Shown here: positions 17,191 through 51,539 of the stretch, in pieces
Numbering within the stretch: position 1 is the stretch's first letter
How the letters are laid out: each line of letters begins with the position of its first letter
DNA from: Chiloscyllium plagiosum
Lineage: Eukaryota
DNA length: 64,000 bases
Assembly: GCF_004010195.1 (NCBI RefSeq)
Contig: NC_057749.1
Location: forward strand, 16,103,831 to 16,167,830
Direction: 5' to 3'
Made by a program: the position numbers and the translations under genes
The notes under the pieces: generated by a model
What the model was told of the DNA's origin: nothing
Database searches by the model: none
Seen by the model: only the letters and a program-made list of their open reading frames with translations

Positions 17191-18924
17191 CATCCTGGGA
17201 ATTGAATTTTAAATATATATATTGTTTTTCTTCTACACTGGTAATTTTTGAAAATCATCCTAATGATTCCAGGATGAAAACCTTTGACAAAATATGTTTT
17301 TGTCAGCAATATTTACCATCAAGTGACTGCTTAGATAACAAAATACTAACATATGAGGAAACCATTGAGCCAGGCTTACTTTATTTCTCTGAAAAATTAC
17401 GTTATTGCAGTATTCCATTGTTTTGAAAAATAATTCTTGTATTCCTATCTTTTTCCTCTGTTGACCACTCAGTGTAAAGATGAACTGTAATCTCAATTTT
17501 CTCTTTGATTAGTTGCAATGATTTTCGCTTGTTCCAAACTCCCCATCATCATGTATGTGAATAGATAGAGTTCCTCTTATTACAAAGACATTTTATAGTA
17601 AATATTGTTTGGATAACTTAAGTTTTGAAGGATTGTAGAAAATGAAGTTATTTCAAGTTTTGCGAAAATATCTGGGGCGGTTTCTTTAAAGTTTACTGTG
17701 GGCTTCAGGATTTTGTTTTAACACAGCATGCTGCAAATCACATAACTGGTTTTAACTGCCTGTTTTGCATTGAGCTCTCCTGTGGACTGGGTTGAACAGT
17801 AACCGGTTTGGACAGGTTCTTGCTTTTATCTGTTCAGTTGGAGGAAAGTAAGCCCAGAATAAGCTACCCAGCTGATCCCTCCCATTCTGGAAAGAAACAC
17901 GTTTTATTAAGTTCAAGGTGAAATCTATCATTCTTTTGAAAGCGTGATTGAAGGAACATCTAAAGATTGTCTGTAAGACTTCAGAGACAACTACGCATGA
18001 GTAATGATATGACATTGTTCGCCAGAGTTTGTTGAGGATGAAACAGGATATAGATCAAAGTAACAAACTCCAAAACATTTTACATTTTACCCTTTTGCCT
18101 TCAAGAACAATCTATTGCTAATAGCTTTTTTTTCAAAAAGCAATTTTTTGCAGGGAAAGTTTAGGGTTTTTTTCATTTCATGAGTGCCTACGTGTTAATG
18201 TGTGTTTTGGTGATATTTCGAGGGATAAACATTATACTTCTATGTTACTATGTATGTTTACCAATTTTTTAATCTTTATTGAATGAATTTTGCTTTGATA
18301 ATGAACCATTGTGTTTATTAAGAATCCTGATTGATAGATCTTGCTTAAAAGCTGTTATCAATATTTAATGCTTCACTGTCATTGGGTCAAAATCCTGGAA
18401 TTCCCACCCTCATTGTGGGTCAACCTACAGCAATATGGACTGAAGTGGTTCAAGAGGCAGCTCACCATCTCAAGGCCAATTAGAGATGGGCAATGAGATG
18501 GACAATAAATGCTGGCCAGCCATCAATGTCTACATCCCAAGAGTAAACTTTTTAACAAAATTATTCTGGTAACTGGAAAAAGTAATTTCATTTAATGCTG
18601 CAATCCATGGAGTAGTGGAACTACAGCAACAGTACACTCCTTCCGCCTTACTCATAACACTGATTTGCTCCATTTTAGCTAAGACACTACCACTTAGCTC
18701 TTTAACTAACAATGGGATTGATGCATTTTATTGTTTGTAGTTTATGTCCAAATGGCACAACCTTGTGGTTTAGGAACCCGTGAGCTTAAGAGACTCAGTA
18801 GACCGATCTCTCTTCATCAGATACCACGTCTCAGTTACAGATTCTCTCCTAAGTTTGATCCTACTCAAGCTCTCCTCCATTCTTTTGGAAGTCCCTTAGT
18901 AGCTGTTCTAGTATACATAGCAGG

Positions 18925-19082
18925 TAAAAACAATGACTGCAGATGCTGGAAACCAGATTCTGGATTAGTGGTGCTGGAAAAGCACTGCATTTCAGGCAGC
19001 ATCCGAGGAACAGTAAAATCAACGTTTCGGGCAAAAGCCCTTCATCAGGAAAACAGGCAGAGTGCCTGAAGGGTGGAGAGAT
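18925..19082 (-). mobile_element. Penelope terminal fragment with hammerhead core (19021-19048)
   Basis: Reverse complement of the unit at 1-116. Confidence 0.8.
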
Positions 19083-21949
19083 GTACCATGTGTTTCTTAT
19101 TTGCCATTCCTGGTCAGTACTGTCCCCCTCCTGATGGTGCACTCAGCTGTCAATAGTCGCCATGTCCAATTGTGAGACATAAAAGTTGACTCCACTACTT
19201 AGTGCTGTCAAAGCTGCAGTGATAGCTGAAAATCAGTGCCTTCCTTCAAGGGTGCTTCATCTGTTCTGGAATTAAAGAATTTCTTCTCAATGATCATTCA
19301 TGCTGCATGATTCTACATGAGCTTCTTTTCCATAGAGTGCAGTTAATGAGGGTGTAACGGGTTGATCTGCACTTCTGCAGAGGTTCATAAAATTATTTTA
19401 GAATAGAGCTTGGAAATGCATGTTGTCTCATCTACTCACTGTCACTATTTCACTACAGATTCCACTTTGTCAATAAAATGAACAAGCAAATGACATTATG
19501 ATCCTTTAGACACAAAAGGAAAAGGTAATTTGGGTATTTTAGAGCAACAGTAACAACAAGAGCATTCTGAAAATCTATCATTTAAGCATGTATGATAAAC
19601 CAGTATGGAATCGCTGAAATGACTGTTCCAGTGAAGCTGCTAATTGTGATCATTTATCTGTAACAGCTTGTATTACCCAACACATGTATGATGACCAAAT
19701 AGGGAAACTGTCATAATCTTTGAAGTGAAATATCAATTTCTGGCATTACTGACAAAAGGTTAGCCCTGGGTACACATTGTGCTATTCCAGAATTGCTATC
19801 GAAATTAAAGTTCCTTTCCCTGAGCTCCTACACTTTCCAAATAAACCCAACTGCTGGACAAGACCTGAGGTTTGATGTGGCCAGGATCAGTGGAGAGGAT
19901 GAGTTTTAAGAATATTGAGAATCAACAATCAGTAAAACCAAAACTAGAAAGGGGGATGATATACCCATAATGAAATGTATTATTTTGATGTTGAATTGGG
20001 AAATCCTTTCATATTCAGTGCAAAACACAGGTAATATGCAAAGAATTTGACGAGTTAATGTATATCTTCAGCTGCTTTGCAAACAAATCACAAAGACATA
20101 CCCTACCCGCATAAAAATAAAATGTTTTCATTTAATGTTGCAATCCATGGAGTAATGGGACAAAAGCATAGTGTATTTACAGCGACTACATATCTCGAAT
20201 GAAATCATAAGCAAAAGACAAACTGTTTGAGGTCGGTCCTCAGTTTGATGGCAGGCGATCCAACATTTCTCTCTCCAAGATTTGTGACTCTTTGGAACTC
20301 TCCAAAGAGAGTTGTGGCTATTTAATTGTTGAATACATTGTTTAATATTTAATTGTTGAATACATTTAAGGTGGGACAGACAGATTTTTGATCTCTCTGG
20401 GAACCAAGGGAAATAGGAAGCAGGTGGAAAAGTGGAGTTGAAGCCCACAATCAGCCATGATCACATTGAATGGCAGAGCAAGCTCAATGGGCTGAATGGT
20501 CTACTGCTGCCTCTCTGTCATGTGTTATTACAGTGGTTTTATCTAAATACTATTACATTTGTTAACTTTTTAAATATGGTTAAACATCTTTGAACATTTC
20601 ATAAACTTTGAAAATTATAAACTTTGAAATTTATCTTAAAACATATTTTAAAATTTCAGAATGGTGAGATACATTAACAAATTCTGAATGTTCGGTGACT
20701 GCCCCAAGAAAAGCGTGGTTACAAACAGTTTTGGTCATATGTGGTAGTGTTTGTAATTCAAAAGATTAAACTATTACTGAAAATGTCTCTTCCAGAAATT
20801 GACACACCCCTAGCCAAGCCTGTAACATTTCTATCTTGATGTGGGTGCCAACATGTCCAAGCATATCTTCTACTCTGAAAAACAGCCAATTACCACCCAA
20901 TCAGTCTACTCTCGATCGTCAGTAAAGTGACGGAAGGTGTCATCAATAGTGCGATCAAGCTAGAACCACTCCTCTCCTGACCCTCTTGCAACCTTGGTTC
21001 ATATATGGACAAAAGAGCTGAATAGCATAAGTACACTGAAACTGTGCTATACAGAAGAGGTTTCTTCCCTGTACCCAACTCTTCACAAATGTAGAATAAG
21101 GATATGAAAAAACTTGGGTTTATAATCCTGATTACAGCTCACTAACATAAAATATTTTCAGAGAAGAAAGTAGTGGAAAACACAAATATTTTGTTTCGTT
21201 TTAATACATTTTATTAACTTCAGTACTGTATTTCAGAAAATATCTTTAAAAATATTTAATTTTAACCCAGTTTGCAACAAATTTGCAGCAGGGAATCTCA
21301 GGATTTTAGTTGTTGACAACGTTTTTGTAAATTCCAGTCAAAATGTATAATTAATTTGACGGACACAAAGAGTAATCTAACATGACCATTCTTATCGCTG
21401 GTTTCTCATGGATAATGCAAACCACATGGGCTGTCCCCCTGCTGTTATTGGCCAAACTAATATTTACAAAAAAAAGCAAAATGAATCTGTCCAAAATGCC
21501 ACATTACAGGTTTAGCCACTCTCTAATTTGCATCTTTCAAATCATGCTATATTCTGTTGGCAAACACTATTAAGTCCACTAGTTGACTCTTACATTTTGT
21601 GCTAATTGTTTTTCTGTTTAATCTATCTGTACAAGACTTTTGACGAGCCTTTGACTGAAGCAGAACTTTTGATCTCAGCTTCTTTTAGCCTGGCTGGATA
21701 AAGGTAAGATTCATCCTGCTCATCGCTCGAGCACTCTTGGATAGTGAATATAAATAATGTTGGATCTTTATCTCCTGTTTCTTTGGTGTCTAAGTTAATT
21801 TTGGTGATCCTTTTCGATTTAAATAGAGGAAAGAATATGGAGAAGTTCGGCTCCTGTGTACCTCAATTTTATCTACTCATTAGATTTAAGCTGAGATGCT
21901 GGTTTAACTGGTTAACTAATTTGTCATGTTTTACTGCTGAGCTATTGTG

Positions 21950-22104: not shown

Positions 22105-22239
22105 ATTATGCATAACATTTCCAGACAATGTTGCCTTTATCTCAAGAATGGAATAAGTTTTAAGAATAGAACAAGAATTTTTGATACAAGAAATCTAACT
22201 CCCCTTGCCTACGTTTCACCATATTTCCTAATTCAGACA

Positions 22240-25630: not shown

Positions 25631-25634
25631 GTTA

Positions 25635-27786: not shown

Positions 27787-27929
27787 ATGGCCAGCACTTC
27801 CTTTTTAACCAACAGGAGGACCATTGGCACCCTCATGTTACTGGGGGCTGGCTCTCTGGCCAATGGGTTCTTACTCACAAGGGATTATATGAAAGCAAGG
27901 GCAAAACAGAGGAAATTGTATCCTCCCAG
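27787..27929 (+). CDS. ckmt1-like: Coding exon 1: mitochondrial transit peptide and mature N-terminus ([30 protein letters not shown]...RKLYPPS)
   Basis: aaaATGG Kozak context. GAGSLAxGFLL matches the CKMT1 presequence. Donor AG|gtaag at 27930. Acceptor ttcttcctgcag| ends at 27774. Confidence 0.93.
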
Positions 27930-30900
27930 GTAAGAAAAATATTTACATCTATATAGTTAAAAATCATACAACACCAGGTTATAGTCCAACAGGTTTAATT
28001 GGAAGCACACTAGCTTTCGGAGCGACGCTCCTTCATCAGGTGATCATGACTACATCTATATAGTTTTTTTTCGACAACTGAATGATTCAAAGCACTCTAC
28101 ACTAAATGAGGTATTTGGAAATATAGTCACTGTTGTGGTGTAGCGAACACAGCAGCATTAATCACACTCCAGTCAGCAAGGTGCTAAAGAGAAGGCAATT
28201 AGTTTTTGTTATGTTGATTCAGAGATAGGTATTTGCTCGGATACTCTGAAAAACTCACCTGTTCTTTGTCAAAATAGTGCCACAAAACGTTTATATCTAA
28301 GCTGACAGATATAGCCTTGGTTTAACATTGCATGAAGGTGATGCCTCTCCCACAGTGCAGTACCCCTCACTACTGCTCTGACAGTATCATCCTAGTTTTA
28401 AAAAATCACACAACACCAGGTTATAGTCCAGTAAGTTTATTTGGAAGCACTAGCTTTCAGAGCGCTGCTCCTTCATCAGGTGATTGTGGAGAATAAGATT
28501 GTAAGACACAGAATTTATAGCAAAAGTTTACAGTGTGATTTAACTGAAATTATATATTGAAAAAGACCCGGATTGTTTGTTAAGTCTCTCATCTTTTAGA
28601 ATGACCATGTTGGTTTCAGTTCTTTCATATGTAAATCGCAAAACTTTTTTTACAAGTTATATTCTCAAGTGCACTTTAACAATTGGTGTCATGTCAGCCC
28701 AGATAAGGTATTGAAGGTGTTAACTCCTTGTGAGGCTGTCTGTGCCACAATGGTCAGACTGATTGTAATCTAAAAATCAGATTTACAGAATCTTACATGG
28801 ATTCATGCAGTTTTTGAGCAAAGTAAAATGTAATTCTGCAAGTACAAATTCACCCCACAAACTTATATGTGTATGTGTCATGTGGGTGTGGAGGAGTGGG
28901 GGGTGGGGGTGGAGGTGGTTATGAGTGTCTGTGAGAGGGTGTATGTATGTGTGTGAGTATGAATGTAAAGGGGTTTAAGTCTGTGAAAGGATGTGTGTGT
29001 GAGTGTATGAGAGAGGGTGTGTGTGTATGTGTGTGTGTATATAGTGCAATGGAGGTCACCTATGGTGACCGTCTCCAAATCATCCTAGATTATGTGCTCA
29101 AATCCTAGAATCCATAATCCTGGGATTCAGGTGTAAGGACCAAGTTTAGGCCTATAGAACAAAAATGTGGGATTTTGGTCAGTGAAACTTTCTACAGCTA
29201 CTGGCCAGTTCTCCAGGGAACAAAAAACTTTGAATTTCAGAATTACAGATTGAGCACACTGCCAGTTAACATGGAAATAAATATTTGAGATCATTAATAA
29301 TAACATTTATTGCATTGCATGTTGTATTTTGACAATAGTAAAAAAATTACCCCCATTTTTAAAACCTACTTCTTTAACAAAGATATTTCCCACCCATCCT
29401 AACATCACCTTTGACTCATTGTCAAATCTTGCACTGATTACATTCCCATTAAGTCTCCTTTTGTATCACATTAAAGGTGCTATACATTAAAGGTGCTATA
29501 GAAATACAAATATTGTTGTGGGTGTATATTTATTCTACATTATGCTCTCAGTGCAGAATATCCTGATCTCCAAAAGCACAACAGCTACATGGCAACTTAC
29601 CTGACCCCTGATTTATATGCCAAACTTCATGATAAATCTACATCCAGTGGCTGGACACTGGATCAGTGCATTCAGACTGGAGTGGACAATCCTGGAGAGT
29701 CCATAGGAATAATAGCAGGAGATGAAGAATCATATGCAGTAAGTATAACTGTACTGTGAATATGGCCACTGAAAATACACAGAAAATACTCACATAGTGC
29801 ACAACAAAATCTGTCTATTCCAGGGGAGCATATTTGGATAAACTCAGCCTTGTGTTAGCCAGCCATGATTGCTTCACTTACCTTGTTGTTGTTTGCACTC
29901 TTCCTGAAAGCAAAGCTACCCTGAACTATGACCTCCACCTGGGTTTCTGAGGAAACATATGAATATCCAAAGTTGACAAATGGATCATCAAACCTATCCC
30001 ACTCTTCACTGACCAGAACACAAGGCATTTCTTTTCTTCTGTGAGTCATTGGGTGGGCAACTGATCCACAGGAAATTAATTCATAACCAATGTGCATCAA
30101 AATCCTTTAGAAAATATAATTCAGTAGCACCAGAGAGGTGAAGGAGCACAAGCTGCATTAGGCTCTAGATGTAAAAGGGAATAAATTATTGCTGTAAATA
30201 TCATAATACTGTAAGAGTAATGTATAAGAATAATGTTATAGAGTAATATAATATTACAATAGATTATCAGCAGGAGGTTAGACTGGATCAGGTGGACTTT
30301 GTGGAGAAAAACACTACAGCTGAATGGCTCACCTTTATTCTATAACTTCAGGAGCAGGAAAATGTGGATTGGACACAGCTATTTGAAGGGAAGTCCACAT
30401 TTGAGATGTGGGAGGCTTTCAAAGATAGGTTAACGGTAGTGCAGGATAGGCATGTCCCATTGAAGGCAAAGGATAGGAAAGGCAAGATTCGTGAACCGTG
30501 GATGACAGGAGAAATTGTATGACTAGCCAAGAGAAAAAGGGAAGCGTACATAAGGTCTAGGCAGTTAAGAACAGAACGGGCCCTGGGGAATATCAGAAGA
30601 GTAGGACAAGTCTTAAACAAGGAATCAAGCAGGCTAAAAGAGGTCATGAAATAGCTTTAGCGAGCAGAATTAAGGGAAATCCCAAAGCATTTTATTCTTA
30701 TATAAGAAGCAAGCGGGTAACTAGAGAAAGGATTGGTCCACTAAAAGATAATGAAGGAAGGCTGTGTGCCAAGGGTTGGTGATGATTCGCCATGGCAGAT
30801 TCGCTGCCGATGATTAGCCACTGCCAGTTCTCCACCAGCGTTTCTCCACTGGGGTCGTTTGACCTCTGGAGACTATTTGCTACTGGAAATATATATATGT

Positions 30901-33900: not shown

Positions 33901-36900
33901 CAAGAACAAGGGACACAGTAGATGATGTATGTGGAGGTACAGGAACGTCTGTCAGATGTGGAAGGATCCTTTGGGGCCTTGGATGAAGGTGAGGGTGAAG
34001 GTGTGGACACAGGTTTTACACCTCTTTCTCCACTGAACATGCTGAGCTCTTTGGTGCTGCTAACACTTGCTAACAATGTCACCTCCAACCATGCAGGTTT
34101 TTGCTGATATATTCGACCCTGTGATTAGAGAAAAGCACAATGGATACGATCCGAAGATCATGAAACATGTCAAAGATTTGGATGCAAGTAAAGTGAGTAG
34201 AAGCCAAACTGCTATATTCGTATTCAGTTTCTGAAAACAGAGCATTGTCTGCAAAGCTAACATTACTGGAAAACAGAACATAGATGACAGAACAGTACAA
34301 CACAGAAACAGGTTCTTCAGCCCACCACAATCCCATCTGCCTGTACATGATCCATATCCCTCTTTAGCCTGCCTGTTCATGTGTCTATCTAAATGCCTCT
34401 TAAACATTGCTATTGTATCTGCTTCTATCACCTCCCATGACAGTGCTTGTCAGGCACCTCTTTGTAAAAATCTTAACTCACACATCTCATTTAAATTTTC
34501 CACCCTCACCTTAAATCTCTGCCCCTTAATATTTGACATTTCTACCCTGGGAAAAAGACTCCAACTATTCATGCCTCTCATAGTTTATATATTTCTAATA
34601 AGTTGGCCCTCAGCCTCTGATGCTGTAGCATAAATAATCCAAGTATGTCCAATCTTTCCTGATAGCTAATACATTCCAATCCAGACAACGCCTGGTAAAC
34701 CCCCTTGCACCTTCTCTGAAGCCTCCACACCCTTCCCATACTGCAGCAACCAGAACTGCACACAACACTCCAAATGTAGCTTAACTAAAGTTTTATACAG
34801 CTGCAAAATGACCTGCCAACTTTTATACTCAAAGTACCAAGTGATGAAGGCAAATATGCCATATGTCATCTTATCCATTTGTGTTGCCACTTGCAGGAAG
34901 CTATGGACTTGCACCCCAAAATAACATGGAAGCAGCCAAGATAGTGGAAGCTTGAAACAGCTTGGCTGCTTAGCCATTGTTCTCAATGTGCTTTGGTAGG
35001 AAGAATAGAGGAGCAGAATATTATTTAAATGGAGAAACACTGCAGAAAGTTGCATAACCAAGGGATTTGGGAATCCTCATGCATAACTCAGAAAAGGCTA
35101 TCATCCAAGATCAGAAGGTAATAGGGAAGGCAATAGAATTTTGGCCTTATTTCAAAGGAAGTGGTACATAAAATAACGAAATCTTGCTAAAGCTATATAA
35201 GGCACTAGTTACACCACAGGATATTGTCAACAGATTTGGTTCCCTCTGTAAAGAAAGATTCACTGGCATTGGAAACAGTCTAGAAAAATTTCACTAGGTT
35301 GATTCTAGGTATTCCTTCTTACAAGAGGTTGAGTAGGTTAGACCTGTAATCATTAGAGCTTAAGAGAATGAGAAGTGGCCTTATTGAAACATATAAAATT
35401 CTTAAGGGGCTTGATAGAATAGATGCAGTGAAGTTGTTCCCCTTGTGGAACAGTCTAGGACCAGAGAGCATAATTTCACAGTAAGTGATCACCCATTTAA
35501 GAGATAAGAAGAATTTCTTCTCGAAGAGAGTAGGTATTCTTTACCATAGAGCGCTGTTGGGGCTCTATGGTGGTTACTAATAAACAAGGCTGAGATAGAC
35601 AGATTTTTAACCATAAGAAAATAAAGGGTTATAAGGAAAATGCAGGACGGTGGAGTTGAGGATTATCAGATCAACCATGATCTTATTGAGAAGTCTGTAC
35701 GTGATTTGTACGAAGGAATCAATTGGACCAACAGTGGAAATAAAAATTTACAGATAAAACATGAAATGCTGACTGTATTTTTTTTTGTTAGGTATTGAGC
35801 AAAGTCAAGGGGAAACAGGTGGGTAATGGCAATTCACTGTATTTTAATCCAGGCTATTGCTTCAGGTTATAGGATCAATGGCAGCTGCAGAATCCAGAAT
35901 AGAAAGTTAGTTTTAGCGATAGCAATCCGACATGTGATCCCAGACCCACTACAACGTGAGTGAATCTTACCTGCCCTCTGGAAGGCAAACCATTCATTTC
36001 AAGGGAAATTACTTGTGAGCGATGAATCTCTAAAAATAATTTTAAAATCTACCCCCCAGAGGCAGACTTTGTAAAGATTCCAGGCTCAACTATATAGAAA
36101 GCCTGTTAATAAACTGGAAATGGTGCAAAAAAGATTTATAAGGGTGTTTCTGAGACTGGAGGGTTTGCGTTATAAGGAGAGGCTGAATGGGCTGGGGCTT
36201 TTTTTCCTGGAACATAGGAGGCTGAGGGGTGACCTTGTAAAGGTTTATTAAAAAATCATGAGGAGCATGGATAAAGGTGTTTTCCCCAGGGTGGGGGAAT
36301 CCAAAACTGGAGGGCATAGGGTTTAAGATGAGAGGGGAAAGATTTAGAAGGGACACGAGGGACGTTTTCACACAGAGGGTGGTGTGTCTATGGAATGAGC
36401 TGCCGGAGGACATGGTACAGGTGAGTACAATTACAACATTTAAAAGACACTTGTATAGGTATGTTGATAGGAAAGGTATAAAATAATCTGAGCCAAATGC
36501 AAGCAGACGGGACTAGTTCAGTTTTGAAAACCTGGTTGACATGGACAAGTTGAGCAGCAGGGGTCTGTTTCCGTGCCAATAACTCTATGACTCTAATATT
36601 GAGGGAATAAAAGGAAAATACAGCAGATGTTGGAGATCTGAAATTAAATCAGAAAGTGTTGATGAAATTCAACAGGTCTGGCAGTGTCTAAGAAGAGAAA
36701 AACACAGTTAACATTTTTGAGTCTGATACAACTTGTCTTGAGCCAACATTAACAACGTTTCTCTCTTCAGTGTTGCTACGAAACTTGTATTTTCCAGCAC
36801 TTCTTGTTTTTATTTCAACACTGAGGAATAGTGTCACAAAAAAACTGGCTCAGTTAAGCACAAACTATGAAGTTTCCTATCTTTGTTTCCTTTACAGATT

Positions 36901-39900
36901 AGGAATGGACAGTTTGATGAAAACTATGTTCTTTCCTCACGTGTCAGGACTGGTCGAAGTATTCGAGGACTCAGCATGCCTCCTGCCTGCACTCGGGCTG
37001 AGAGGAGAGAGGTGGAGAGGGTGACTGTTGAGGCATTAGCTGGATTAAAGGGAGATCTAGCTGGAAAATACTACAGTCTGAGCAGTATGACAGATAAAGA
37101 GCAGCAACAGCTCATTGATGTAAGACAATGAACCACAATTCATCTTGGTTAGAAGGAACTGGCTGGTGCAGTGACCAGTGGCTTCCACACTAGCATTTCC
37201 AATGTGTCCTGAATGTTTCTTATATCTGCAAGGATTCAATATTGTAAGATTTTGTTAAATAATCACCAAGCTCCTGGGACCCTGCAGTATCGCACTGTCC
37301 CTCATTCTATGTGAATTGACAAAAAACATTCAGAACACTGTTGGTCAGTACAGATAGAGCTCTACTCTGTCTAGCTTTGGTCTAACTAACCTTGAAGTAT
37401 TTGATGGAAACAGTTGTTATGACCCACTTAAGAAAGTCTGTTGATTCTCAAGCCCCACTATTTTCAGGGTCACCACAACAATTAATGATTTAATCAAAGT
37501 AGGAAAAGTCCCAAAATATCTGCCTGGAGGAATCAGGATCTGGCACTTAATGCGAACTACAGTTTATTTCAAAAAGATATGTTTTAGCCAAATTATGAGC
37601 TATCAATTCTAACCCCCTTTTTGAACCCCTACACCCACCATACACAGAGTGGGACAAACAAAGAAAAAAAATTGGAATCACAGTTTAATTTTCCTGGTCG
37701 ACAGACGTCAAGAATGCAGTCCTTTTCTCTTCCCAAGTGTTTCTCTTCTGCTAATTCCTTCCTTCCAGATTCTCAGTTATTTGTCACAGACACAGGGGAT
37801 TTACACTTCAATTGTTAATTTCACAGTTAGAGGAAACAACTGACAGTAAATGAGAGGAGAGAATAGTTGACAATCTTAAAGTTTGGGTTATTTGGCTACA
37901 GAGAGATATGGACATATCCTGCTTCTTCCAGTCTTAAAACCTTTGGTCCCTGTGTCAATTCATCCCTAGTCATTGGCTTTAGAAATAGTTATTTTCTACT
38001 TTAGATCACAATCAATTAGTCAGAGAAATAATAAGATGCGGCCTCCACATGTCTCCAATTCCCACACCTGCAGAGGTCATCATGAAGGTCCATCCTCTCC
38101 AACGCGTTCCTTGCCTGAGATATATTGACTCTCAGGTTAAACCACCACTAGTTGTCTCTATGTAATGAGAGAGAAAGACTATGGTCCTTTGGGACTATTG
38201 CAACTTTACCTTGTACCTTTATATATCGTTACACAAAAAAAAATGCAGTCTTTATACATGTGTACAGGAAACTTTACTCTATATCTTAATCTCATGTTGT
38301 ATATCTTTCTATAGGATCACCTCTTGTTTAACAAACCAGCATCACCTTTCCACTTGTCTTCAGGGATGGCCAGGGATTGGCCCGATGCTCGGGGCATTTG
38401 GTAAGTTTGGATTCAGGAAAAAGGAGAGGATTGTGGCCAGGAAGGAAGGTAAACATGAAGTTTGCAATACTGAATTCCAAAACATCTGGAGATCTGAAAG
38501 TAATGCAGGTCAGCAGAGACAAGGTGGTGCAGGAAAATGATCATGCCAAGATGAGTGTTTCTGGGTCTAAATACAAGTGATGTTTTAAAAATAACCAAAC
38601 CATTCTGTTCCCACGTATCTACAGGTATAATAATGAGAAGACTTTCTCAATCTGGATCAATGAGGAGGACCATATTCGAATTATCTCCATGGAAAAAGGC
38701 GGTAACATGAAGAAAGTGTTTGAGAAATTCTGCCGGGGTCTCAAAGAGGTAAACAGTTATAAGAGCAACCGATCCATTAGGATCCTCCCGCCACTGTTGC
38801 ACAATCTGGAGCAGGCTATTCAGCCCAACATATCTGTCCGGGCTGTTTGAGAAAGTTATGCTGTTAGTCCTAATATTGAAGCCCCTCATCCTAACTCCCT
38901 CCTCACACAGCCCTGTAAATTTTCCCCTTTCAAATGTACCTCCAATTTTAACAGAATAAAAATAAGACCTATTTCAGAAGGAAACATTTCTCCACTAGAC
39001 ACCTTACCTCCTCCTCACTTTTACAAGCTGCCTTTTGTTTCAGTCACTTCCTCTTGAAACTTTGATTTATCCTGCTTCTTTGTTACTTTTGATGAAAATT
39101 GTTGAATTTTCCATGTTTTCCTGGCTTTTCTGTGCCTCATTGTTGAGCATTCATTAACATATGGAGTGGTTCAGGTGAATAGTATAGATTACATTTCGGG
39201 GAAAACGAGTGAACAAACTGAAGAGAAAGGAATGGAGAATGTTATCTTGATGGGGTTAGGTGAAGGTGAAAGGGGGCTGGGAAATCTGGTGTAGACAATA
39301 AGCTGCAGCACAAAATCAAATGCCCTGTTTTCATATTGTACACTCAATGTAACTCTATGACTCCATTCATCCTTGCCACTGTTAGAAAAACAGAATACAA
39401 TGCTGAGATTTGAAACAAAAATGTTTTTTCCAGATTGAGAAACTTATCGCTGAGAAAGGCTGGGAGTTTATGTGGAATGAGAGAATTGGCTACATCCTGA
39501 CATGCCCATCAAACCTGGGCACTGGACTCCGAGCTGGGGTACACATCAAACTACCCATGCTCAGCAAGGTACCAGCTCAATCTCATTTTCCAACTGGGCT
39601 TCAATTCTAATGGACATCATTTACTCTCCATTGTACATGACGCTGAAATCAGTTAGTCCTGATACACAAAACATTCGCAAACTACATGCTGAGAATACCA
39701 GTGAAAGGAAAGGGAATAAGGTAGGTCTCTCTCCTTTAGACGATGATAGAGAACTCCTTGTGAAATTAAGTGACAAATTAGGGGGCTGAGATTCCACAGG
39801 GATTCCTGCTCACAAGAAACAAAACAGAGGCTGCTTTAACATGGAACAGGACTAAACAGAACCTGACATGAACAGCCCACAGGTTAGCTGGTATAAGAAA

Positions 39901-42688
39901 TGGTAATGATCACAAAGACATTACAAGAGTTTGACTGGGGTAAGGGCTGGGGCTCATTGAAGAGGACAGTGCAGAAGGAGCTTTACTGTGCATTGTATCT
40001 CATGCTGTCCCTGCCCTGGGAGTGTAAAAGGAGCTTTACTCTGTCTCTAACCCAGCGCTGTCCCTGTTTAATGAAGACAGTAGAGAGGGAGTTTTACTAT
40101 GTCCAAGTTGTCTTGGGAGTTATTGAAATAAAAATTTTTCTTACCTGGTAGTGAAGCCTCTTGCTGTAACGAGCAGAAAACCACACAGGGAAAAAAAACC
40201 TCTCAAAATTAGAAGAGCCGATGGTATATGTTGACTAGTAGAGTAGAAGGACTGCCATAGATGCAATTACATTACACATACCACAGTATAAAGGGTGTAT
40301 GGTAGGAGTGACCAATGCACAGTGCTTGTGGACACCATTTCCTGTCTTCTCTTTGAGGATACACTCCATCATGCCGTGTGGCACTATCACCTTTATAACT
40401 GGGGTGGAAGAGGTCTAGTAACTCAAGACTGGGCATCTATGAGACTGTGGGCGATCAGCAAAAACAGGACTGCACTCAAACATAATCTGTAACCTCATAG
40501 TCCAGCAGATCCCTCACTGTATCATTACTATCAAGCTACAGGACCAAGTTTGTTCCATTAAAAATGTGAAAGGAGTTGCCGGATGTTCTCATGGAATACA
40601 GGGAGAACTAGCCATTTGGATACAGAACTGGCTCAAAGATTGAAGACAGAGGGTGGTGGTGGAGGGTTGTTTTTCAGACTGGAGGACTGTGACCAGTGCA
40701 GTGCCATAAGGAACGGTGCTGGGTCCTCTACTTTTTGTCAGTTACATAAATGATTTGGATGCGAGCATAAGAGGTACAGTTAGTAAGTTTGCAGATGACA
40801 CCAAAATTGGAGGTGTAGTGGACAGCGAAGAGGGTTACCTCAGATTACAACAGGATCTGGACCAGATGGGCCAATAGGCTGAGAAGTGGCAGATGGAGTT
40901 TAATTCAGATAAATGCGAGGTGCTGCATTTTGATAAATCAAACCTTAGTAGGACTTATACACTTAATGGTAGGGTCCTAGGGAATGTTGCTGAACAAATA
41001 GACACTGGAGTGCAGGTTCCTAGCTCCTTGAAAGTGAAGTCGCAGGTAGATGGGATAGTGAAGAAGGNNNNNNNNNNNNNNNNNNNNNNNNNNNNNNNNN
41101 NNNNNNNNNNNNNNNNNNNNNNNNNNNNNNNNNNNNNNNNNNNNNNTTATGAGAGGCATGGATAGGATAAATAGACAAATTCTTTTCCCTGGGGTGGGGG
41201 AGTCCAGAACTGGAGGGCACAGGTTTAGGGTGAGAGGGAAAAGATATAAAAGAGACCTAAGGGGCAACTTTTTCACGCAGAGGGTGGTACATGTATGGAA
41301 TAAGCTGCCAGAGGATGTGGTGGAGTCTGGTACAATTGCAACATTTAAGAGGCATTTTGGATGGGTAATGAATAGGAAGGGTTTGGAGGGATATGGGCCG
41401 TGTGTTGGCAGGTGGGACTAGATTGGGTTGGAATATCTGGTCGGCATGGACGGGTTGGACCGAAGGGTCTGTTTCCATGCTATACAACTCTATGACTCTA
41501 TACTATCGGGCATAGCCAAAAATGAGGTGTCAATCTGATGGTGCCACAAAGAGGGCTGTTTCGCCTTTCAAACAGCATAAGCAGCAAGTGATAAACAAAG
41601 CTAACAAATTCCTCAATCAACAAGTCAGATCTAAGCTCAGCAATTCTGCCACATCCATTTGCAAATAGTGGACAATTAAACAATTCAATAGAGGAGTAGG
41701 TTCCACAAATATTCCCATTCTTAACAATGGGGGACCCCAGCATTTCATTGCAAAGGATAAGGCTGAGGCAGCCACAACAATCTTAACTTAGTCTTTGGCC
41801 AATGCAATTCACTCCACTTGATATCAAGGAAAGGCAGAAGACACTGAATACTGCAAAGGGTGCTGACAATATTTCAATATTAGTACTGAAGATTTACTCT
41901 CCAAAATGTGGCATACCCTGTAGCCATACTGTTCTAATACAACTGCAATACCGGTATTAATCTAACAATGTTGGACTATAACCTGGTGTTGTGTGATTTT
42001 TAATTTGGATGTTAACAGACAGCTTTTTGTTTGATAGAAGCTCCCTGTTATCTTTAATTTCTGATTCAGGATCCTCGCTTCCCGAAGATCCTGGAGAACC
42101 TGCGACTGCAGAAACGAGGGACAGGGGGAGAGGACACCGAAGCTGTGGACAGCGTGTTTGATATCTCAAACCTGGACCGTCTGGGGAAATCTGAGGTGAG
42201 TTACCACAGTTTATTATACAGTGGTTATGTAATGGGGAAGGCACAAGGGGGCAGTAGGGGAGAGAAAAGTGTACATGAATAGGTTTCCTTGAAGGGATCT
42301 CGAGATAACAAAGGGAGAATTTGTGGGAGGGGTCAGGATTCATTGGGGAAGTGAAGGGGGGAATACAGGGAAATTGGAACAGAAGAAGGGGAGGATATCA
42401 GTTCAGGGATAGATTTCCTTTGGGAAGTGAAGGAAGGATCAAGCATGGCAATTGGACGGGAAAAGAGGCATGGAGAGGGGATTATCTTTCCAAAACAAAA
42501 ATAGGATTCTCCCTCCCCCTTTTGATAATGTAAAAGTCTAATCTTGAATGTCTTGTTCCTTTCTTCAGGTGGAGCTTGTTCAATTAGTGATTGATGGAGT
42601 CAACTATTTAATTGAGTGTGAGAAGAGACTCCAGCAAAGTCACGATATCCAAATCCCACCCGCCCTACGCATAAACAGTTACCATTGA
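27787..42688 (+). CDS. ckmt1-like: Mitochondrial creatine kinase U-type-like phosphagen kinase, 9 coding exons, 412 aa, divergent substrate pocket
   Basis: Hand-spliced exons 27787-27929, 29552-29738, 34097-34192, 36898-37119, 38315-38400, 38625-38748, 39434-39568, 42070-42195, 42569-42688 total 1239 nt in one open frame with GT-AG introns. U-type diagnostic strings: [50 protein letters not shown]. Confidence 0.96.
27959..28050 (-). mobile_element. 92-bp Penelope terminal fragment with hammerhead core, in intron 1
   Basis: 15-bp TSD tacatctatatagtt (27944-27958 and 28051-28065). Minus strand reads cac-CTGATGA-aGGAGC-gtc-GCTCC-GAAA-GCTA-gtg. Confidence 0.85.
28396..29078 (-). mobile_element. 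Penelope 3' UTR fragment with hammerhead core and TG microsatellite
   Basis: 10-bp TSD atcatcctag (28386-28395 and 29079-29088), same terminus as 27959. Confidence 0.85.
29552..29738 (+). CDS. ckmt1-like: Coding exon 2 ([19 protein letters not shown]...[20 protein letters not shown])
   Basis: ctctcag| acceptor and |gtaagt donor. 187 nt, 12 nt shorter than the equivalent human CKMT1 segment. Confidence 0.95.
30350..32865 (+). mobile_element. CR1 LINE ORF2 fragment, interrupted by a DNA transposon
   Basis: ORFs 31539..32910 with [40 protein letters not shown] and FADD. Confidence 0.93.
30773..31466 (-). mobile_element. Non-autonomous Mutator/MULE-like DNA transposon
   Basis: 9-bp TSD gtgtgccaa (30764-30772 and 31467-31475), ~55-bp imperfect TIRs built of ttcgcc/ggcgaa repeats, internal remnant [21 protein letters not shown] (31118-31195, minus). 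Confidence 0.8.
32866..33559 (-). mobile_element. Penelope 3' end with hammerhead core (32921-32949), spans a gap
   Basis: [33 protein letters not shown]-terminus, same terminus family as 28396. Confidence 0.85.
33560..34026 (-). repeat. Near-identical copy of the Penelope segment starting at 25871
   Basis: Long stretches read base-for-base identical with only scattered differences. Confidence 0.85.
34097..34192 (+). CDS. ckmt1-like: Coding exon 3 ([32 protein letters not shown])
   Basis: catgcag| acceptor with upstream gctaac branch-like motifs, |gtgagt donor, 96 nt. Confidence 0.95.
34280..35690. mobile_element. Two decayed CR1 fragments (minus 34280-34920, plus 34990-35690)
   Basis: [17 protein letters not shown] on minus, degenerate CR1 C-terminus and tail on plus. 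Confidence 0.8.
36110..36596 (+). mobile_element. CR1 3' end
   Basis: [14 protein letters not shown], tail ctctatgactct. Confidence 0.88.
36898..37119 (+). CDS. ckmt1-like: Coding exon 4 ([24 protein letters not shown]...EQQQLID)
   Basis: tttacag| and |gtaag, 222 nt, seen in ORF 36883..37131. Confidence 0.97.
38315..38400 (+). CDS. ckmt1-like: Coding exon 5 ([29 protein letters not shown])
   Basis: ttctatag| and |gtaagt, 86 nt, [13 protein letters not shown] motif. Confidence 0.96.
38625..38748 (+). CDS. ckmt1-like: Coding exon 6 ([41 protein letters not shown])
   Basis: tctacag| and |gtaaac, 124 nt, catalytic NEED motif at 38659-38670. Confidence 0.96.
39434..39568 (+). CDS. ckmt1-like: Coding exon 7 ([45 protein letters not shown])
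   Basis: ttttttccag| and |gtacc, 135 nt, CPSNLGT signature with reactive Cys at 39503-39505. Confidence 0.97.
40585..41500 (+). mobile_element. CR1 LINE 3' portion (spans a gap)
   Basis: [13 protein letters not shown] and [15 protein letters not shown], tail ctctatgactct. Confidence 0.92.
42070..42195 (+). CDS. ckmt1-like: Coding exon 8 ([42 protein letters not shown])
   Basis: ctgattcag| and |gtgagt, 126 nt. Confidence 0.96.
42569..42688 (+). CDS. ckmt1-like: Coding exon 9 ([39 protein letters not shown])
   Basis: ctttcttcag| acceptor, TGA at 42686-42688. Confidence 0.95.
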
Positions 42689-43880: not shown

Positions 43881-43899
43881 AATACTCTCAATGAATTCT

Positions 43900-47159: not shown

Positions 47160-47659
47160 NNNNNNNNNNNNNNNNNNNNNNNNNNNNNNNNNNNNNNNNN
47201 NNNNNNNNNNNNNNNNNNNNNNNNNNNNNNNNNNNNNNNNNNNNNNNNNNNNNNNNNNNNNNNNNNNNNNNNNNNNNNNNNNNNNNNNNNNNNNNNNNNN
47301 NNNNNNNNNNNNNNNNNNNNNNNNNNNNNNNNNNNNNNNNNNNNNNNNNNNNNNNNNNNNNNNNNNNNNNNNNNNNNNNNNNNNNNNNNNNNNNNNNNNN
47401 NNNNNNNNNNNNNNNNNNNNNNNNNNNNNNNNNNNNNNNNNNNNNNNNNNNNNNNNNNNNNNNNNNNNNNNNNNNNNNNNNNNNNNNNNNNNNNNNNNNN
47501 NNNNNNNNNNNNNNNNNNNNNNNNNNNNNNNNNNNNNNNNNNNNNNNNNNNNNNNNNNNNNNNNNNNNNNNNNNNNNNNNNNNNNNNNNNNNNNNNNNNN
47601 NNNNNNNNNNNNNNNNNNNNNNNNNNNNNNNNNNNNNNNNNNNNNNNNNNNNNNNNNNN

Positions 47660-47946
47660 GTCCCAACTACTGTCACAAACCTGGCATCAGCCCACAGTCC
47701 CAACTACAGTCACAAATCTGACAAATTCCCACATTCCCAACTAAAGTCACAAACCTGGCATCAGCCCAGAGTTCCAAATACAGTCACAAACCTGGCATCA
47801 TCCCAGACTCCCAACTACAGTCACAAACCTGGCATCATCCCACAGTCCCAAATACAATCACAAACCTGGCCTCACTCCACCATCCCAACTACAGTCACAA
47901 ACCTGGCATCAGCCCAGAATCCCAAATATAGTCACAAACCTGGCAT
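47660..47946. repeat. ~38-bp tandem minisatellite (cagtcacaaacctggcatcagcccacagtcccaacta), 7-8 visible units next to a gap
   Basis: Direct reading of repeated units. Confidence 0.92.
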
Positions 47947-47949
47947 CTC

Positions 47950-48205: not shown

Positions 48206-49129
48206 AGATGGAATCTGGGATGACATAACCTGCAGTTCCAATGTGGTGAAGATGAACGATATGTAAGACCAATGAGGTGCCTCTTCAATAAGTCGACTAT
48301 GACTTATCACTTGTTAACAGTCTCTGAGAGAAGAAGTGCTTTGACCAGCATCTTGTTCCTGGCCATGCCCCTGCCCCTACAGTGTAAGTGATTAAAGGTT
48401 TCCCAGCCTGTCAGTCTCCCTGAAGAAATCATCACAATTGCCCACATATTTCGACAGCTCAGGAAAAAAAATATCCGGGGTGTCAAATCCAGAACTGAGG
48501 ACAAAACTATGCATTACCATCATTTATTTGAATTGTTTAATTACTGAGTTGAGAAATACTTGGGTGTTTACTGCTTAGTGAAAGCCAGCCTGGAAAGGGC
48601 AGGACAATTCTGGAATCTGAGAGGCTAGAACTGTTCAAATAGAAGTTCCTAAATTGTGACCTTAGTGCCCGGCACACCTCATGAAGCATTTACAGCTCCC
48701 ATTGTGTAGCATGTAGTCAGTTACAAAGGCTTGGGCTGTGTTTCTATGATACTTTCCAAACAAATCGCACCCTTATCTTATCGGGTATCATGGTGAAGGC
48801 TGGTACCTGGGAAATGAAGCTGAACGTGTTTAAAGTGCAAAACCAATTAGACAAACTGGTCAGACTTTTATGAAGGCTGGTTTAAACGGACAAGCAACTG
48901 TCCAGCTGAAGACACAGTCCAGTGCCTGATATATCCTGCTGACTGATCCCTTTAAGGTGGGAGCAGACATTTGCCATTGGTCGAGGTGAGAGAGAATATT
49001 AAGCCACCTGGGTTCCTGTGCCTGATATCTGCAGAAGGCAGCACCCTGACTGGGAATACTCAATGAAGAAAGCCCGGAATTTACCTGTTTAACGTCACCT
49101 CAGGTGCCCCAAATGACATTCTGTATCTA

Positions 49130-49605
49130 CAAAGAACAAAACAGCATAGGAACAGGCCATTCAGCCTTTCAGGCCTGCGCCAACATATTTTGCATAATAA
49201 AACTGTCTTCTCTTACAGGATTCATATCCCTCTATTCTCTACCTGTGCATGTGTTTGTCCAGGTGTTTCTTGAACGCTGCTATTGAGTCTGCTTCCACCA
49301 CCTCCTCCAGCAGCATGTTCCAGCTACTCACCATTCTTGCCTCTCACATCTCTTTTAAACCTACCCCTCGCACCTTGAACCTGTGTCCCCTAGTAATCGT
49401 CCCCTCCACCTTGGGAAACAGCCTCATTCTTTCCACTCTATCCATGCCATTACAACCTAACAAACTTCTATCAGGTTGCCTCTCGACCTCCTGTGGTCCA
49501 GTGAAAACAAACCCAACCTTTCTTCATAGCCAAAATCCCTCATACCTGGCAACATCCTGAAAAACCTTTTTTAAGTACCTCTCCAAAGTATCCACATCCT
49601 TCAGT
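49130..49605 (-). mobile_element. Decayed CR1 3' end
   Basis: ggaacaggccattcagcc tail and gcttccaccacctcctcc...accttgaacctgtgtcccctag. Confidence 0.75.
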
Positions 49606-51539
49606 ACCCTGGGCTGCCCTTTGAGAAACTGATGGAATCAGGTGCAGTGATCATTTTTGTTAAATTTGCTGTATTTTTGCCCCATCCCTCCACCATCTCT
49701 AGGGCCACGTTTGATAAGATCCTATGAGATAGCAGAGGAGCAGCGAACGCATGGAAATGCATTCCAGCCAGAATCAGTATGTTCAAGACAGAGAGGGAGA
49801 AAAGGCTTAAATATTAGTCCAAAGCAGAACATAAATAAGGGATTAAATGCATTATTTAAACAACATTTGAGTTAGGTTTTCATCTTGATCTTTTTAAGAG
49901 ATCACAAATTGGTAAGAGATGGGCAATACATTTGGAAATCCGAGATCTTAAGGGGGTCAGAGATAGGTCTCTATCCATCAAATACCACACCTCAATCACA
50001 ACGTCTCTCATGAGTTTGATAACCATAAGATGTAAAAGCAGATGTAGACCATTCAGCGTATCAGCGTAGTCCACCATTCAATATGATCGTGATTGATCTG
50101 ATATTCTTCAACTCCACCTTCCTGCTTTTTCCCAATAACACTTGATTCCATTACTGATTAAAAATCTATCTTAGTCTTGAATGTACGTAGTGACCCAGCC
50201 TCTGCAGCCCTCCGTGGTAAAATTATTCCACAGATTCACAACCCTCTGTTCCTCATCTCTGTCTTGATTGAGCAACCCCTTACTCTGAGATTATGTCCTC
50301 TTGTCCCCGACTCTAACAGCCTGTATGCATCCATCCTGTCAAACTTCCTAAGAATCTGTTCTGGAGCTCTGTTCTCAATTATCATTCATGTGACAAAATT
50401 CTGCATGAGCTTTTGTTTTCCACAGTGCACTAGTAACAGGCGTGTGACTAGTTAGCTTAGTCTTCTGTTGCTGAAACTAAAATGTTTTTTTCTGAGCTCC
50501 CCCTTTCCAAACAAACTCAATTGGTTAAGAGCCCCAACTGACAGGTGACGAGGGGAAATACACACATCTTCAGGCTTGAAGTGTTTTTACTGCACGGAAT
50601 ATTTTCCGAATTGCTGAAATAAAAGCAGAAAAGCAGAAACCCAGCAGGTCTAGCAGAATTTGGGAGAGAAAAACAGGGTTAATGCTTCAAATACGATTTG
50701 ACTTTTGCTCAGAACTCATACGCTGGAGATGACCCGAGTTTGGCAGGGCCAGGATCAATGAGTGGGTGAAATTTAAGAATACAGGGAACCTACAATAAGT
50801 AAAATCAAATCTACAAAGAGCGACAGTATGGCAGTGATAAAATGGATTACTGTATAGTTGAAAGGGTGATAAAATTGTATACTCAGGGTCAAAGTACATC
50901 TGGTATGCAAAGATTGTAACCAGTTAATGCACGCCTTCACCTACTTTGTAAATACAACAAGAAGCTCTGCCTTTCCTAAAGAAAAGGAAAATTCTTTCAG
51001 TTCTATTTTAAAGCAATTTATTGTAAACCTGGTGGAATTTCACATTATAAACACATAATTCAACACCCTGATGGTTTCTGTGGGTCATGCTGGATGTGGT
51101 GCCCAGTCATGGGAAGCAGGAGATTCCGGTTCAATCTCGGACCTATCGAATTGGTCAATCCCATTTGTGGAGGTGACTCAGGTATTACACTTGAGCTCTA
51201 TCCTTTTGAGCATAAGAAAGACTTCAAAGCTTACAACAAAAATGGAGGCCATTTGGTCCATCATACCTGTACCAGTTGTTTAACAGAATCATTCAATCAG
51301 TCCCACTCTCTCTGCTCTTTCTGCATAGCCCACAATGTTTAGCCTTGTCACATATTTAGCCCATTCCCTTTTGGAAGGTCTGATTGAATCTGTTCCCATT
51401 GCCCTTCCACTTGACACAATCTAAAACTCAATAACTCCAATTTCAGGGGAGGGCGCATTAAGTAAGAGAAGGTCAAGATGTTTATTAGGGACACAAATTA
51501 TGGAATAAACTCATGCAAATTCAAACAAATTAGCTTTTA

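What the first reader, a model, noticed from the sequence alone, without database searches (positions are those of the whole stretch)
18780..50990. Ancient ~31-kb-period tandem duplication predicts a sister CKMT1 copy downstream
Seen: four collinear, same-strand blocks of non-coding homology. (1) ~18786-18859 matches ~49947-50020 (catcagataccacgtctcagttaca / catcaaataccacacctcaatcaca). (2) ~19261-19360 matches ~50356-50450 (ttctcaatgatcattcatg / ttctcaattatcattcatg). (3) ~19801-19950 matches ~50473-50523 plus ~50722-50820 (ctgagctcc...ctttccaaataaacccaa). (4) ~20035-20086 matches ~50904-50956 (tatgcaaaga...agttaatg...cttca). Each side has independent TE insertions. Inference: the gene's upstream region is duplicated after its 3' end, so a second, probably canonical, CKMT1 should follow beyond 64 kb. 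That would explain how this copy was free to diverge.
Basis: partly seen in the sequence, partly recalled or inferred. Interest (0 to 1): 0.72.

Follow-up and report, generated by a model that had tools for sequence, protein, structure and literature searches.

The report
Shark tandem creatine-kinase pair, respecified twin
The matching non-coding stretches are real traces of an old side-by-side duplication of a shark mitochondrial creatine kinase gene; in sharks and rays the two copies seem to keep overwriting each other except at the parts that choose the substrate, which suggests that the copy here works on something other than creatine.

Summary
All four blocks are real (69-79% identity, far above shuffles). 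A fifth collinear block, a 37-bp unit at 15.3 and 47.7 kb, moves the unit's start to the CpG island at 15.1 kb; the downstream counterpart of that island would fall in a 500-N gap. Blocks 3b-4 have single-copy-level depth in two DNA runs. The gene equals Chiloscyllium plagiosum XP_043536382. No sister exon lies in the window and no genome was held, so the downstream CKMT1 was not seen. Five other sharks and rays carry a canonical (Val325) and a diverged (Glu325) copy on one contig. Exon-partitioned trees group the Glu325 copies together in substrate-loop exons 2, 5 and 8, but beside their own lineage's canonical gene elsewhere (AU p=6e-6): concerted evolution sparing the specificity exons. The window enzyme keeps its catalytic residues but has a lombricine-kinase-like signature (4-residue loop deletion, Lys96, Glu325). 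Eels and frogs also have Glu325 copies. Reviews call creatine kinase the only vertebrate phosphagen kinase. The scan had not noted this on other DNA; a note on this window flagged Lys96.

The parts
15050..15350 (+). CpG-rich promoter-like island; probable 5' end of the first (diverged) unit
   Evidence: Most CpG-rich 200-nt windows of the 64 kb. Promoter role and strand are inferred, not shown.
15325..15437 (+). Block 0, upstream: about three degenerate copies of the 37-bp unit
   Evidence: 92/110 identical to 47753-47874, 0 of 500 shuffles
18522..18628 (+). Partial local copy of the tail behind block 4 (matches 20058-20168; 43-bp core 88%)
18769..18859 (+). Block 1, upstream
   Evidence: 67/90 identical to 49931-50020
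18924..19082 (.). Multi-copy SINE-like insertion, upstream side only
   Evidence: many self-hits
19239..19399 (+). Block 2, upstream
   Evidence: 107/152 identical to 50331-50489
19793..19855 (+). Block 3a, upstream
   Evidence: 46/58 identical to 50468-50525
19844..20133 (+). Block 3b+4, upstream
   Evidence: 197/285 identical to 50713-50999; blastn E 1e-19
21637..21703 (+). Candidate non-coding 5' exon (AG..GT by eye)
   Evidence: Sequence only; no RNA test; no downstream counterpart found
27787..27929 (+). CKMT1-like coding exon 1 (ATG, transit peptide)
29552..29738 (+). Exon 2: guanidino-specificity loop, four residues shorter than in creatine kinases
34097..34192 (+). Exon 3: Lys at the Arg96 position
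36898..37119 (+). Exon 4: 0 of 74 residues differ from the canonical C. punctatum paralogue
38315..38400 (+). Exon 5: diverged active-site loop (8 of 28 residues differ)
38625..38748 (+). Exon 6: NEEDH catalytic motif kept
39434..39568 (+). Exon 7: active-site cysteine (CPSN) kept
42070..42195 (+). Exon 8: Glu at the Val325 position (codon 42130-42132)
42569..42688 (+). Exon 9 to the stop codon; the 412-aa product equals P0121 (XP_043536382.1)
47160..47659 (.). 500-N assembly gap where the second unit's promoter region is predicted
   Evidence: content not recovered
47660..47947 (+). Block 0, downstream: 37-bp tandem array, 7.8 copies, abutting the gap
   Evidence: high-depth contigs show more copies than assembled
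49931..50020 (+). Block 1, downstream
50038..50171 (-). Repeat-end insertion, downstream side only
   Evidence: self-hits to 20378-20510 and 35597-35689
50331..50525 (+). Blocks 2 and 3a, downstream (adjacent)
50525..50712 (.). SINE-like insertion, downstream side only
   Evidence: self-hits at 50524-50563 and 50635-50682
50713..51002 (+). Block 3b+4, downstream; single-copy-level depth
51051..64000 (.). LINE-rich stretch where the second unit continues; no CK exon
   Evidence: 54% covered by self-hits; tblastn and blastn negative

Best explanation
The blocks are what remains alignable of the 5' region of a head-to-tail duplication of the mitochondrial creatine kinase gene CKMT1. Unit 1 runs from the CpG island at about 15.1 kb through the nine coding exons to about 43-47 kb. 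Unit 2 begins in or near the 500-N gap and is stretched by LINE insertions, so its coding exons, most likely the canonical Val325 CKMT1, start beyond 64 kb. The duplication is old: at least as old as the common ancestor of Pristis and skates for the ray copy, and probably the shark-ray ancestor. Since then, non-allelic gene conversion between the neighbours has repeatedly homogenised exons 1, 3, 4, 6, 7 and 9, while selection removed conversions in exons 2, 5 and 8, which carry the substrate loops. The window copy is a mitochondrially targeted phosphagen kinase with intact catalytic residues whose pocket has been rebuilt (shortened loop, Lys96, Glu325), most likely for an unmethylated and bulkier guanidino compound such as taurocyamine rather than creatine. 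Shown: blocks, gene structure, residues, paired copies in relatives, discordant exon trees. Inferred: position of the sister gene, promoter in the gap, conversion as the mechanism, the substrate.
For: Five collinear same-strand blocks, each 0 of 500 shuffles, one partner each for the 7 intervals tested. Depth in bin 50711-51040 is 14.4 (X1) and 33.2 (X4), like unique bins (11.1/23.1, 15.1/44.2), against about 3,000 to 6.9 million in repeat bins. Canonical and Glu325 copies share a contig length in C. punctatum, Heterodontus (two Glu, one Val), Pristis, Amblyraja and Rhinoraja; accessions are near-consecutive in Pristis (XP_051898695-99 / 700-03), Amblyraja (XP_032870950-52 / 956-57) and Heterodontus (XP_067871669 / 673-74). 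Differences within a species cluster in exons 2, 5, 8: Pristis 6/67, 6/28, 9/42 against 0/49, 1/74, 0/45, 1/38 in exons 1, 4, 7, 9. Tree of exons 2+5+8: all 8 elasmobranch Glu copies form one clade (97/95); tree of the other exons: each sits by its own lineage's canonical gene, and holding them together is rejected, p-AU 6e-6. Pristis shares a two-residue loop insertion with both skates. Lineage-private residues shared by both paralogues: 4 in Heterodontus, 3 in Amblyraja, 3 in Rhinoraja, 4 in carpet sharks, 0 in Pristis. Loop length equals lombricine kinase (3jpz, 21 residues for 21; creatine kinases 25); lombricine and taurocyamine kinases have Glu at the 325 site; residue 95/96 is Arg in CK, Lys in LK and mitochondrial TK (PMC3836730, passages); Ile69 and Val325 form the creatine pocket (PMC12387690, passage).
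Against: The sister gene was not seen: no CK exon in 42.7-64 kb, no genome, C. plagiosum canonical record not among the listed members. No further homology was found downstream for 20.2-27.8 kb, including the candidate 5' exon (42 region pairs, none convincing). Accessions are not adjacent in C. punctatum (XP_072408815 / 923-26) or Rhinoraja (XP_078286140 / 202-03), and accession order gives no direction. The depth test ran at 85% likeness while the two copies are only 69-79% alike, and the bins holding blocks 1 and 2 (93/233 and 104/285) also contain repeat pieces. The 37-bp unit lies in high-depth contigs, so block 0 may be a repeat family member. After dropping 30 convergence-prone columns, the shark+ray Glu clade is unresolved (41% of bootstrap trees; the ray clade stays at 82/82), so separate origins in sharks and rays remain possible. 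No Glu copy appeared for whale, zebra, lamnid or cat sharks, stingrays, Narcine or the chimaera in the listed hits (best 120 of each of three searches). No enzyme assay exists; conversion was tested on proteins only.
Confidence: 0.74

Rival explanations
1. The tandem duplication is real, but the downstream unit is a decayed remnant or a second diverged copy, and the canonical CKMT1 lies elsewhere, for example upstream of the window.
For: Heterodontus has three copies, two of them Glu325. Homology stops after block 4, and 13 kb follow without a CK exon. Direction cannot be read from accessions.
Against: No CK exon in the first 27 kb either, so an upstream copy would end more than 15 kb before the CpG island, whereas unit 1 ends only about 5 kb before unit 2 begins. 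Only one Glu-type gene per hemiscylliid species appears in the cluster. The 13 kb are mostly LINE sequence.
Confidence: 0.12
2. Blocks 1-4 are a small (about 1.5 kb) local duplication or two relics of an old, low-copy transposable element, unrelated to the gene duplication; block 0 is a dispersed minisatellite.
For: Blocks 1-4 span only 1.4 kb; the upstream copy is bracketed by a 43-bp direct repeat (18586-18628 / 20126-20168); the 37-bp unit is multi-copy in read data; the depth test cannot see a family under 85% likeness.
Against: Every tested block has one partner only; block 3b-4 has single-copy-level depth while old LINE pieces beside it draw thousands; no Pfam or Rfam hit; order, strand and spacing of two unrelated elements (37-bp unit, blocks 1-4) agree, and the geometry fits a gene pair known from five relatives.
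Confidence: 0.1
3. Assembly artefact: an uncollapsed haplotype or a misjoin at the 500-N gap places an unlinked paralogous region here.
For: The second unit begins exactly at a round 500-N gap, of the kind that scaffolding programs insert at joins of unknown size (own knowledge); no listed contig spans it.
Against: 71% identity with independent insertions is no haplotype pair; contigs of two other DNA runs match 48175-51566 with 0-5 differences. A misjoin would change the distance, not the paralogy.
Confidence: 0.04
4. On function only: the diverged copy is still a creatine kinase with altered kinetics, or a weakly active partner in mixed octamers, and the Glu325 copies of sharks, rays, eels and frogs are separate recent duplicates that converged.
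For: The whole-protein tree needs 5 changes of the Glu label, at least 4 forced by starred branches. The eel Glu and Val genes lie on contigs of different length and the sister of the eel Glu clade has Val, so at least the eel case is convergent. Reviews know only phosphocreatine in vertebrates.
Against: All three known creatine determinants are changed at once while catalytic residues are invariant; 203 of 229 single-domain CK-like proteins held have Val, 20 have Glu, 6 did not match the pattern; the shared insertion in Pristis and skates cannot be a recent species-level duplicate.
Confidence: 0.35

Closest known systems
Human CKMT1A/CKMT1B tandem duplication on 15q15.3 (recalled, not looked up)
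   Same: Same gene family, two head-to-tail copies in a segmental duplication
   Different: The human pair is young and encodes the same protein; this pair is 71% alike in non-coding DNA, 83% in protein, and one copy has a rebuilt substrate pocket
Tandem pairs under gene conversion with a protected specificity exon, such as primate OPN1LW/OPN1MW or RHD/RHCE (recalled)
   Same: Most exons homogenised within a lineage, function-defining exons kept apart
   Different: Here the pattern spans shark and ray orders, involves a metabolic enzyme, and was tested on protein sequences only
Annelid lombricine kinase (PDB 3jpz) and mitochondrial taurocyamine kinase
   Same: Evolved from creatine-kinase-like ancestors (PMC3836730, passages); short specificity loop, Lys95/96 and Glu at the 325 site, as in the window protein
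   Different: The window protein nests inside vertebrate CKMT1, so the likeness is convergent; no activity measured
Glycocyamine kinase (PDB 3l2d, 3l2e) and the engineered Val325Glu creatine kinase (Novak et al. 2004, recalled; Jourden et al. 2007, title seen in a reference list)
   Same: Loss of the hydrophobic pocket for creatine's methyl group; the Heterodontus, ray and frog copies keep a full-length or longer loop and Arg96, which fits this model better
   Different: The window protein's loop is five residues shorter than glycocyamine kinase's and has Lys, not Ile, at 95/96
RefSeq 'creatine kinase U-type, mitochondrial-like' XP_043536382.1 (Chiloscyllium plagiosum)
   Same: Identical protein, 412 of 412
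   Different: Automatic annotation only; it does not note the tandem origin, the conversion pattern or the changed pocket

Membership tests
Tandem gene duplication with concerted evolution | Collinear, same-strand homology of flanking non-coding DNA | tested here: met
   five blocks, 0 of 500 shuffles each
Tandem gene duplication with concerted evolution | Second gene copy directly adjacent in this genome | not testable with these tools
   no genome held; none within the window; same-contig pairs in five relatives
Tandem gene duplication with concerted evolution | Paralogues more alike within a lineage than orthologues across lineages over part of the gene | tested here: met
   (protein level)
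Tandem gene duplication with concerted evolution | Conversion tracts in synonymous sites or introns | not testable with these tools
   no DNA of the canonical copy was available
Interspersed repeat (transposable element) | Many copies in either orientation | tested here: not met
   one partner per block in the window; single-copy-level depth for block 3b-4 at 85% likeness
Interspersed repeat (transposable element) | Old family with copies under 85% alike | tested here: inconclusive
   below the threshold; blocks 1, 2 share bins with repeat pieces; block 0 is multi-copy
Interspersed repeat (transposable element) | Transposon protein or structured-RNA signature | tested here: not met
   no Pfam hit above cut-off in 95 frames; 0 Rfam hits
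Ubiquitous mitochondrial creatine kinase (CKMT1) | Phylogenetic position and N-terminal transit peptide | tested here: met
   nested among chondrichthyan CKMT1, apart from CKMT2; exon 1 matches U-type MtCK
Ubiquitous mitochondrial creatine kinase (CKMT1) | Catalytic residues (NEEDH, active-site Cys, ATP-binding arginines) | tested here: met
Ubiquitous mitochondrial creatine kinase (CKMT1) | Creatine determinants: full 60-70 loop with His66/Ile69, Arg96, Val325 | tested here: not met
   four-residue deletion, Lys, Glu
Lombricine / mitochondrial taurocyamine kinases | Short specificity loop, Lys95, Glu at the 325 site | tested here: met
   (loop length compared with lombricine kinase only)
Lombricine / mitochondrial taurocyamine kinases | Descent from the annelid clade | tested here: not met
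   groups inside vertebrate CKMT1 (annelid enzymes were not in the tree)
Lombricine / mitochondrial taurocyamine kinases | Activity on taurocyamine or lombricine | not testable with these tools
   needs an assay
Glycocyamine kinase | Long specificity loop and Ile95 | tested here: not met
   3l2d/3l2e span five residues more than the window loop; Ile in GK per PMC3836730

The most novel reading that the evidence does not exclude
Vertebrates have a second mitochondrial phosphagen kinase. A tandem CKMT1 twin has been kept since the shark-ray ancestor (possibly since early jawed vertebrates, since frogs also carry a same-contig pair), hidden from gene trees by gene conversion and from annotation by the name 'CKMT1-like'. 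It phosphorylates a non-creatine guanidino compound (taurocyamine-like in bamboo sharks, glycocyamine-like elsewhere), and eels evolved the same change independently.
Probability: 0.4. Interest if true: 0.85.

Novelty: new variant of a known kind. Interest (0 to 1): 0.64.

Why it matters
The duplication as such is an ordinary kind of event, and both genes are already present in automatic annotations of relatives. It matters because it explains and dates a diverged enzyme. Three reviews read here state that creatine kinase and phosphocreatine are the only phosphagen system of vertebrates (PMC6429109, PMC3836730, PMC11492440; passages). A conversion-protected paralogue with the Glu325 signature in sharks, rays, frogs and eels makes that statement directly testable with one recombinant protein and a substrate panel. 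It is also a clear case of old paralogues looking young in whole-gene trees, and it tells assemblers what the 500-N gap probably hides.

Tried and rejected
Whole genome requested: none held. A profile of the canonical 5'-exon peptide found no significant match; the candidate at 15276 ranked 127 of 127,924, so homology of the CpG island to that exon is not shown. Search for more homology blocks: 42 region pairs, two marginal scores that vanished under strict scoring (115 and 26 of 500 shuffles). Neighbour genes: 97 upstream and 95 downstream reading frames gave 1 and 3 Pfam hits, all below cut-off; four recalled PPIP5K1 motifs were not found, so the flanking genes are unidentified. Rfam: 0 hits. 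Read laying did not recover the gap's content: tables were swamped by repeats (14,128 loose ends and 6,467 joints not shown). No RNA holder was listed for the downstream blocks. Raw RNA run X21 (about 2% read) had no depth on the unique exon-8 bin: no verdict on expression. A second contig at exon 8 in X4 could be the canonical gene but cannot be assigned. AlphaFold model from a 10-row alignment was poor (mean pLDDT 44.6) and was not used; no fold search was run. The profile search for more Glu325 copies was crowded by two-domain kinases and added one (P0315). Searches failed on a display error and were re-shown. Trees: 53 rows chosen by hand; 15 rows dropped for (38 rows), 24 rows. Paper searches (9 of 10 used) listed nothing on a duplicated or respecified CKMT1 in sharks; subscription journals, where most phosphagen-kinase work appeared, are not covered, and no supplements were read. 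I did not date the duplication from K80, for lack of a calibrated rate.
Full report
Observation. They are 67/90, 107/152, 46/58 and 197/285 identical, same-strand and in order, and none of 500 shuffles reached any of them. Each of the seven intervals tested has a single partner in the window. Insertions differ between the sides. A fifth block was missed: three degenerate copies of a 37-bp unit at 15325-15437 match a 7.8-copy array at 47660-47947. Upstream it directly follows the most CpG-rich spot of the window; downstream it directly follows a 500-N gap. The period therefore includes a gap of unknown true size.

The gene. Nine coding exons with canonical splice sites (27787-42688) give a 412-residue protein identical to Chiloscyllium plagiosum XP_043536382.1. 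It is 96% identical to proteins of C. punctatum and Hemiscyllium and 83% to the canonical CKMT1 of C. punctatum. No other CK exon lies in the window, and no other coding gene was detected in 97 upstream and 95 downstream frames. No genome was held, so the predicted sister gene could not be looked at.

Repeat or duplication. Contigs of two DNA runs laid at 85% likeness gave depth 14.4 and 33.2 over block 3b-4, like unique bins (11.1/23.1 and 15.1/44.2), against thousands to millions over repeats. The tool warns that depth is no copy number, and the threshold is above the 69-79% likeness of the two copies, so this excludes a young or middle-aged family, not a very old one. The bins with blocks 1 and 2 are mixed with repeat pieces. 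The 37-bp unit lies in 3-5 contigs of high depth, so it has more copies than assembled, probably an array running into the gap; this weakens block 0 as independent evidence. In run X23 (RNA by guess) the depth of bin 42131-42460, 0.74, equals one contig of depth 3.76 covering only the 65 exon bases, which suggests a spliced transcript of one of the two paralogues. Run X21 gave no verdict.

Relatives. A canonical copy (Val325) and a diverged copy (Glu325) lie on contigs of identical length in C. punctatum, Heterodontus (two diverged), Pristis, Amblyraja and Rhinoraja; accessions are near-consecutive in three of the five. The canonical C. plagiosum record was not among the 15 of 26 members listed. 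Glu325 copies also occur in eels and three frogs; of 229 single-domain CK-like proteins held, 203 have Val, 20 Glu and 6 did not match. The tailed frog Ascaphus has two copies with consecutive accessions on one contig, both Val. The eel Glu and Val genes are on different contigs and the eel Glu clade has a Val sister, so that case is best read as convergence after the teleost genome duplication (inference). No Glu copy appeared for several other sharks and rays in the listed hits, which may be loss or incomplete listing.

Concerted evolution. The whole-protein tree scatters the Glu copies (5 changes). Split by exon, the picture resolves. Within a species, differences cluster in exons 2, 5 and 8: Pristis 6/67, 6/28 and 9/42 against 0/49, 1/74, 0/45 and 1/38 in exons 1, 4, 7 and 9; the window protein and canonical C. 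punctatum differ at 0 of 74 in exon 4. Exons 2+5+8 put all eight elasmobranch Glu copies in one clade (97/95); the other exons put each beside its own lineage's canonical gene and reject the clade (p-AU 6e-6). Pristis shares a two-residue loop insertion with both skates although it is almost identical to its own canonical gene elsewhere. Both paralogues share lineage-private residues in four of five lineages tested. Against a single origin: removing 30 columns where bony-vertebrate Glu copies carry the same change leaves the shark+ray clade unresolved (41% of bootstrap trees), while the ray clade persists (82/82). Conversion within rays is thus well supported, one origin for sharks and rays likely but unproven. 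The hemiscylliid copy also has a long branch in the other exons (0.13), so exchange there has slowed.

Function. Catalytic residues are kept. The three creatine determinants are all changed: the 60-70 loop is four residues shorter, the same length as in lombricine kinase; Arg96 is Lys (first flagged in note e1-7858549), the residue of lombricine and mitochondrial taurocyamine kinases (PMC3836730, passages); Val325, which with Ile69 forms the pocket (PMC12387690, one passage), is Glu as in lombricine and taurocyamine kinases and arginine kinase Glu314 (PMC11492440, passages). That a Val325Glu mutant prefers glycocyamine is recalled, not read. My estimate for the window enzyme: prefers a non-creatine guanidino substrate 0.55, altered creatine kinase 0.3, weakly active or regulatory 0.15. 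PMC12467219 (passages) added nothing.

Prior art. Nine paper searches listed no description of this pair; I saw only listings for papers not named above, and subscription journals are not covered. PMC6429109, PMC3836730 and PMC11492440 (passages) state that creatine kinase or phosphocreatine is the only vertebrate system.

Verdict. Observation confirmed; interpretation partly supported, with the sister gene probable (about 0.75) but unseen. The duplication is an ordinary kind of event. The interest lies in what it exposes: an old paralogue disguised by conversion, with a rebuilt substrate pocket. Novelty: new variant of a known kind. Interest 0.64.

Noticed in passing
window 25871-26326 and 33560-34013: A 456-bp, 98%-identical pair of Penelope-like pieces in introns 0 and 2 of the gene, plus a 110-bp 99% internal duplicate at 26217-26476: a recent local copy or conversion event.
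   Followed up: no
window 30760-30860 and 31353-31460: Inverted, CpG-rich arms (30785-30836 with 31403-31454, 85%) enclosing an AT-rich core of about 500 bp, inserted into a LINE in intron 2; looks like a small DNA transposon with a 31-bp internal repeat.
   Followed up: no
window 9200-10620: Penelope-like reverse-transcriptase remnant (273-aa frame at 9810-10631) followed by two tandem 240-bp SINE-like units at 10625-11056.
   Followed up: no
window 9030-9164, 44467-44594, 45095-45213, 52352-52498: A family of short elements that often occurs as inverted pairs of the same 45-bp end; very high copy in read data.
   Followed up: partly
window 18586-18628 and 20126-20168: A 43-bp direct repeat (88%) brackets the upstream copy of blocks 1-4, perhaps a remnant of an older 1.5-kb local tandem duplication.
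   Followed up: partly
window 42196 onward; P0124: RefSeq isoform X2 (378 aa) ends shortly after exon 8 with a different tail, so a truncated splice form is annotated.
   Followed up: no
P0044 (Synaphobranchus): This eel Glu325 copy also has a four-residue deletion in the specificity loop, the same loop length as the bamboo-shark enzyme, apparently gained independently.
   Followed up: partly
P0216 and P0345 (Ascaphus truei): Two CKMT1 copies with consecutive accessions on one contig; the second keeps Val325 but has a long branch in exons 2, 5, 8, a possible intermediate state.
   Followed up: partly
P0017, P0140 (Amblyraja): Two annotated isoforms of the Glu325 gene have different first exons, which may reflect a further partial duplication.
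   Followed up: no
window 42084: A synonymous G/A difference in exon 8 appears in contigs of runs X1, X4 and X23; allele or paralogue could not be told apart.
   Followed up: partly
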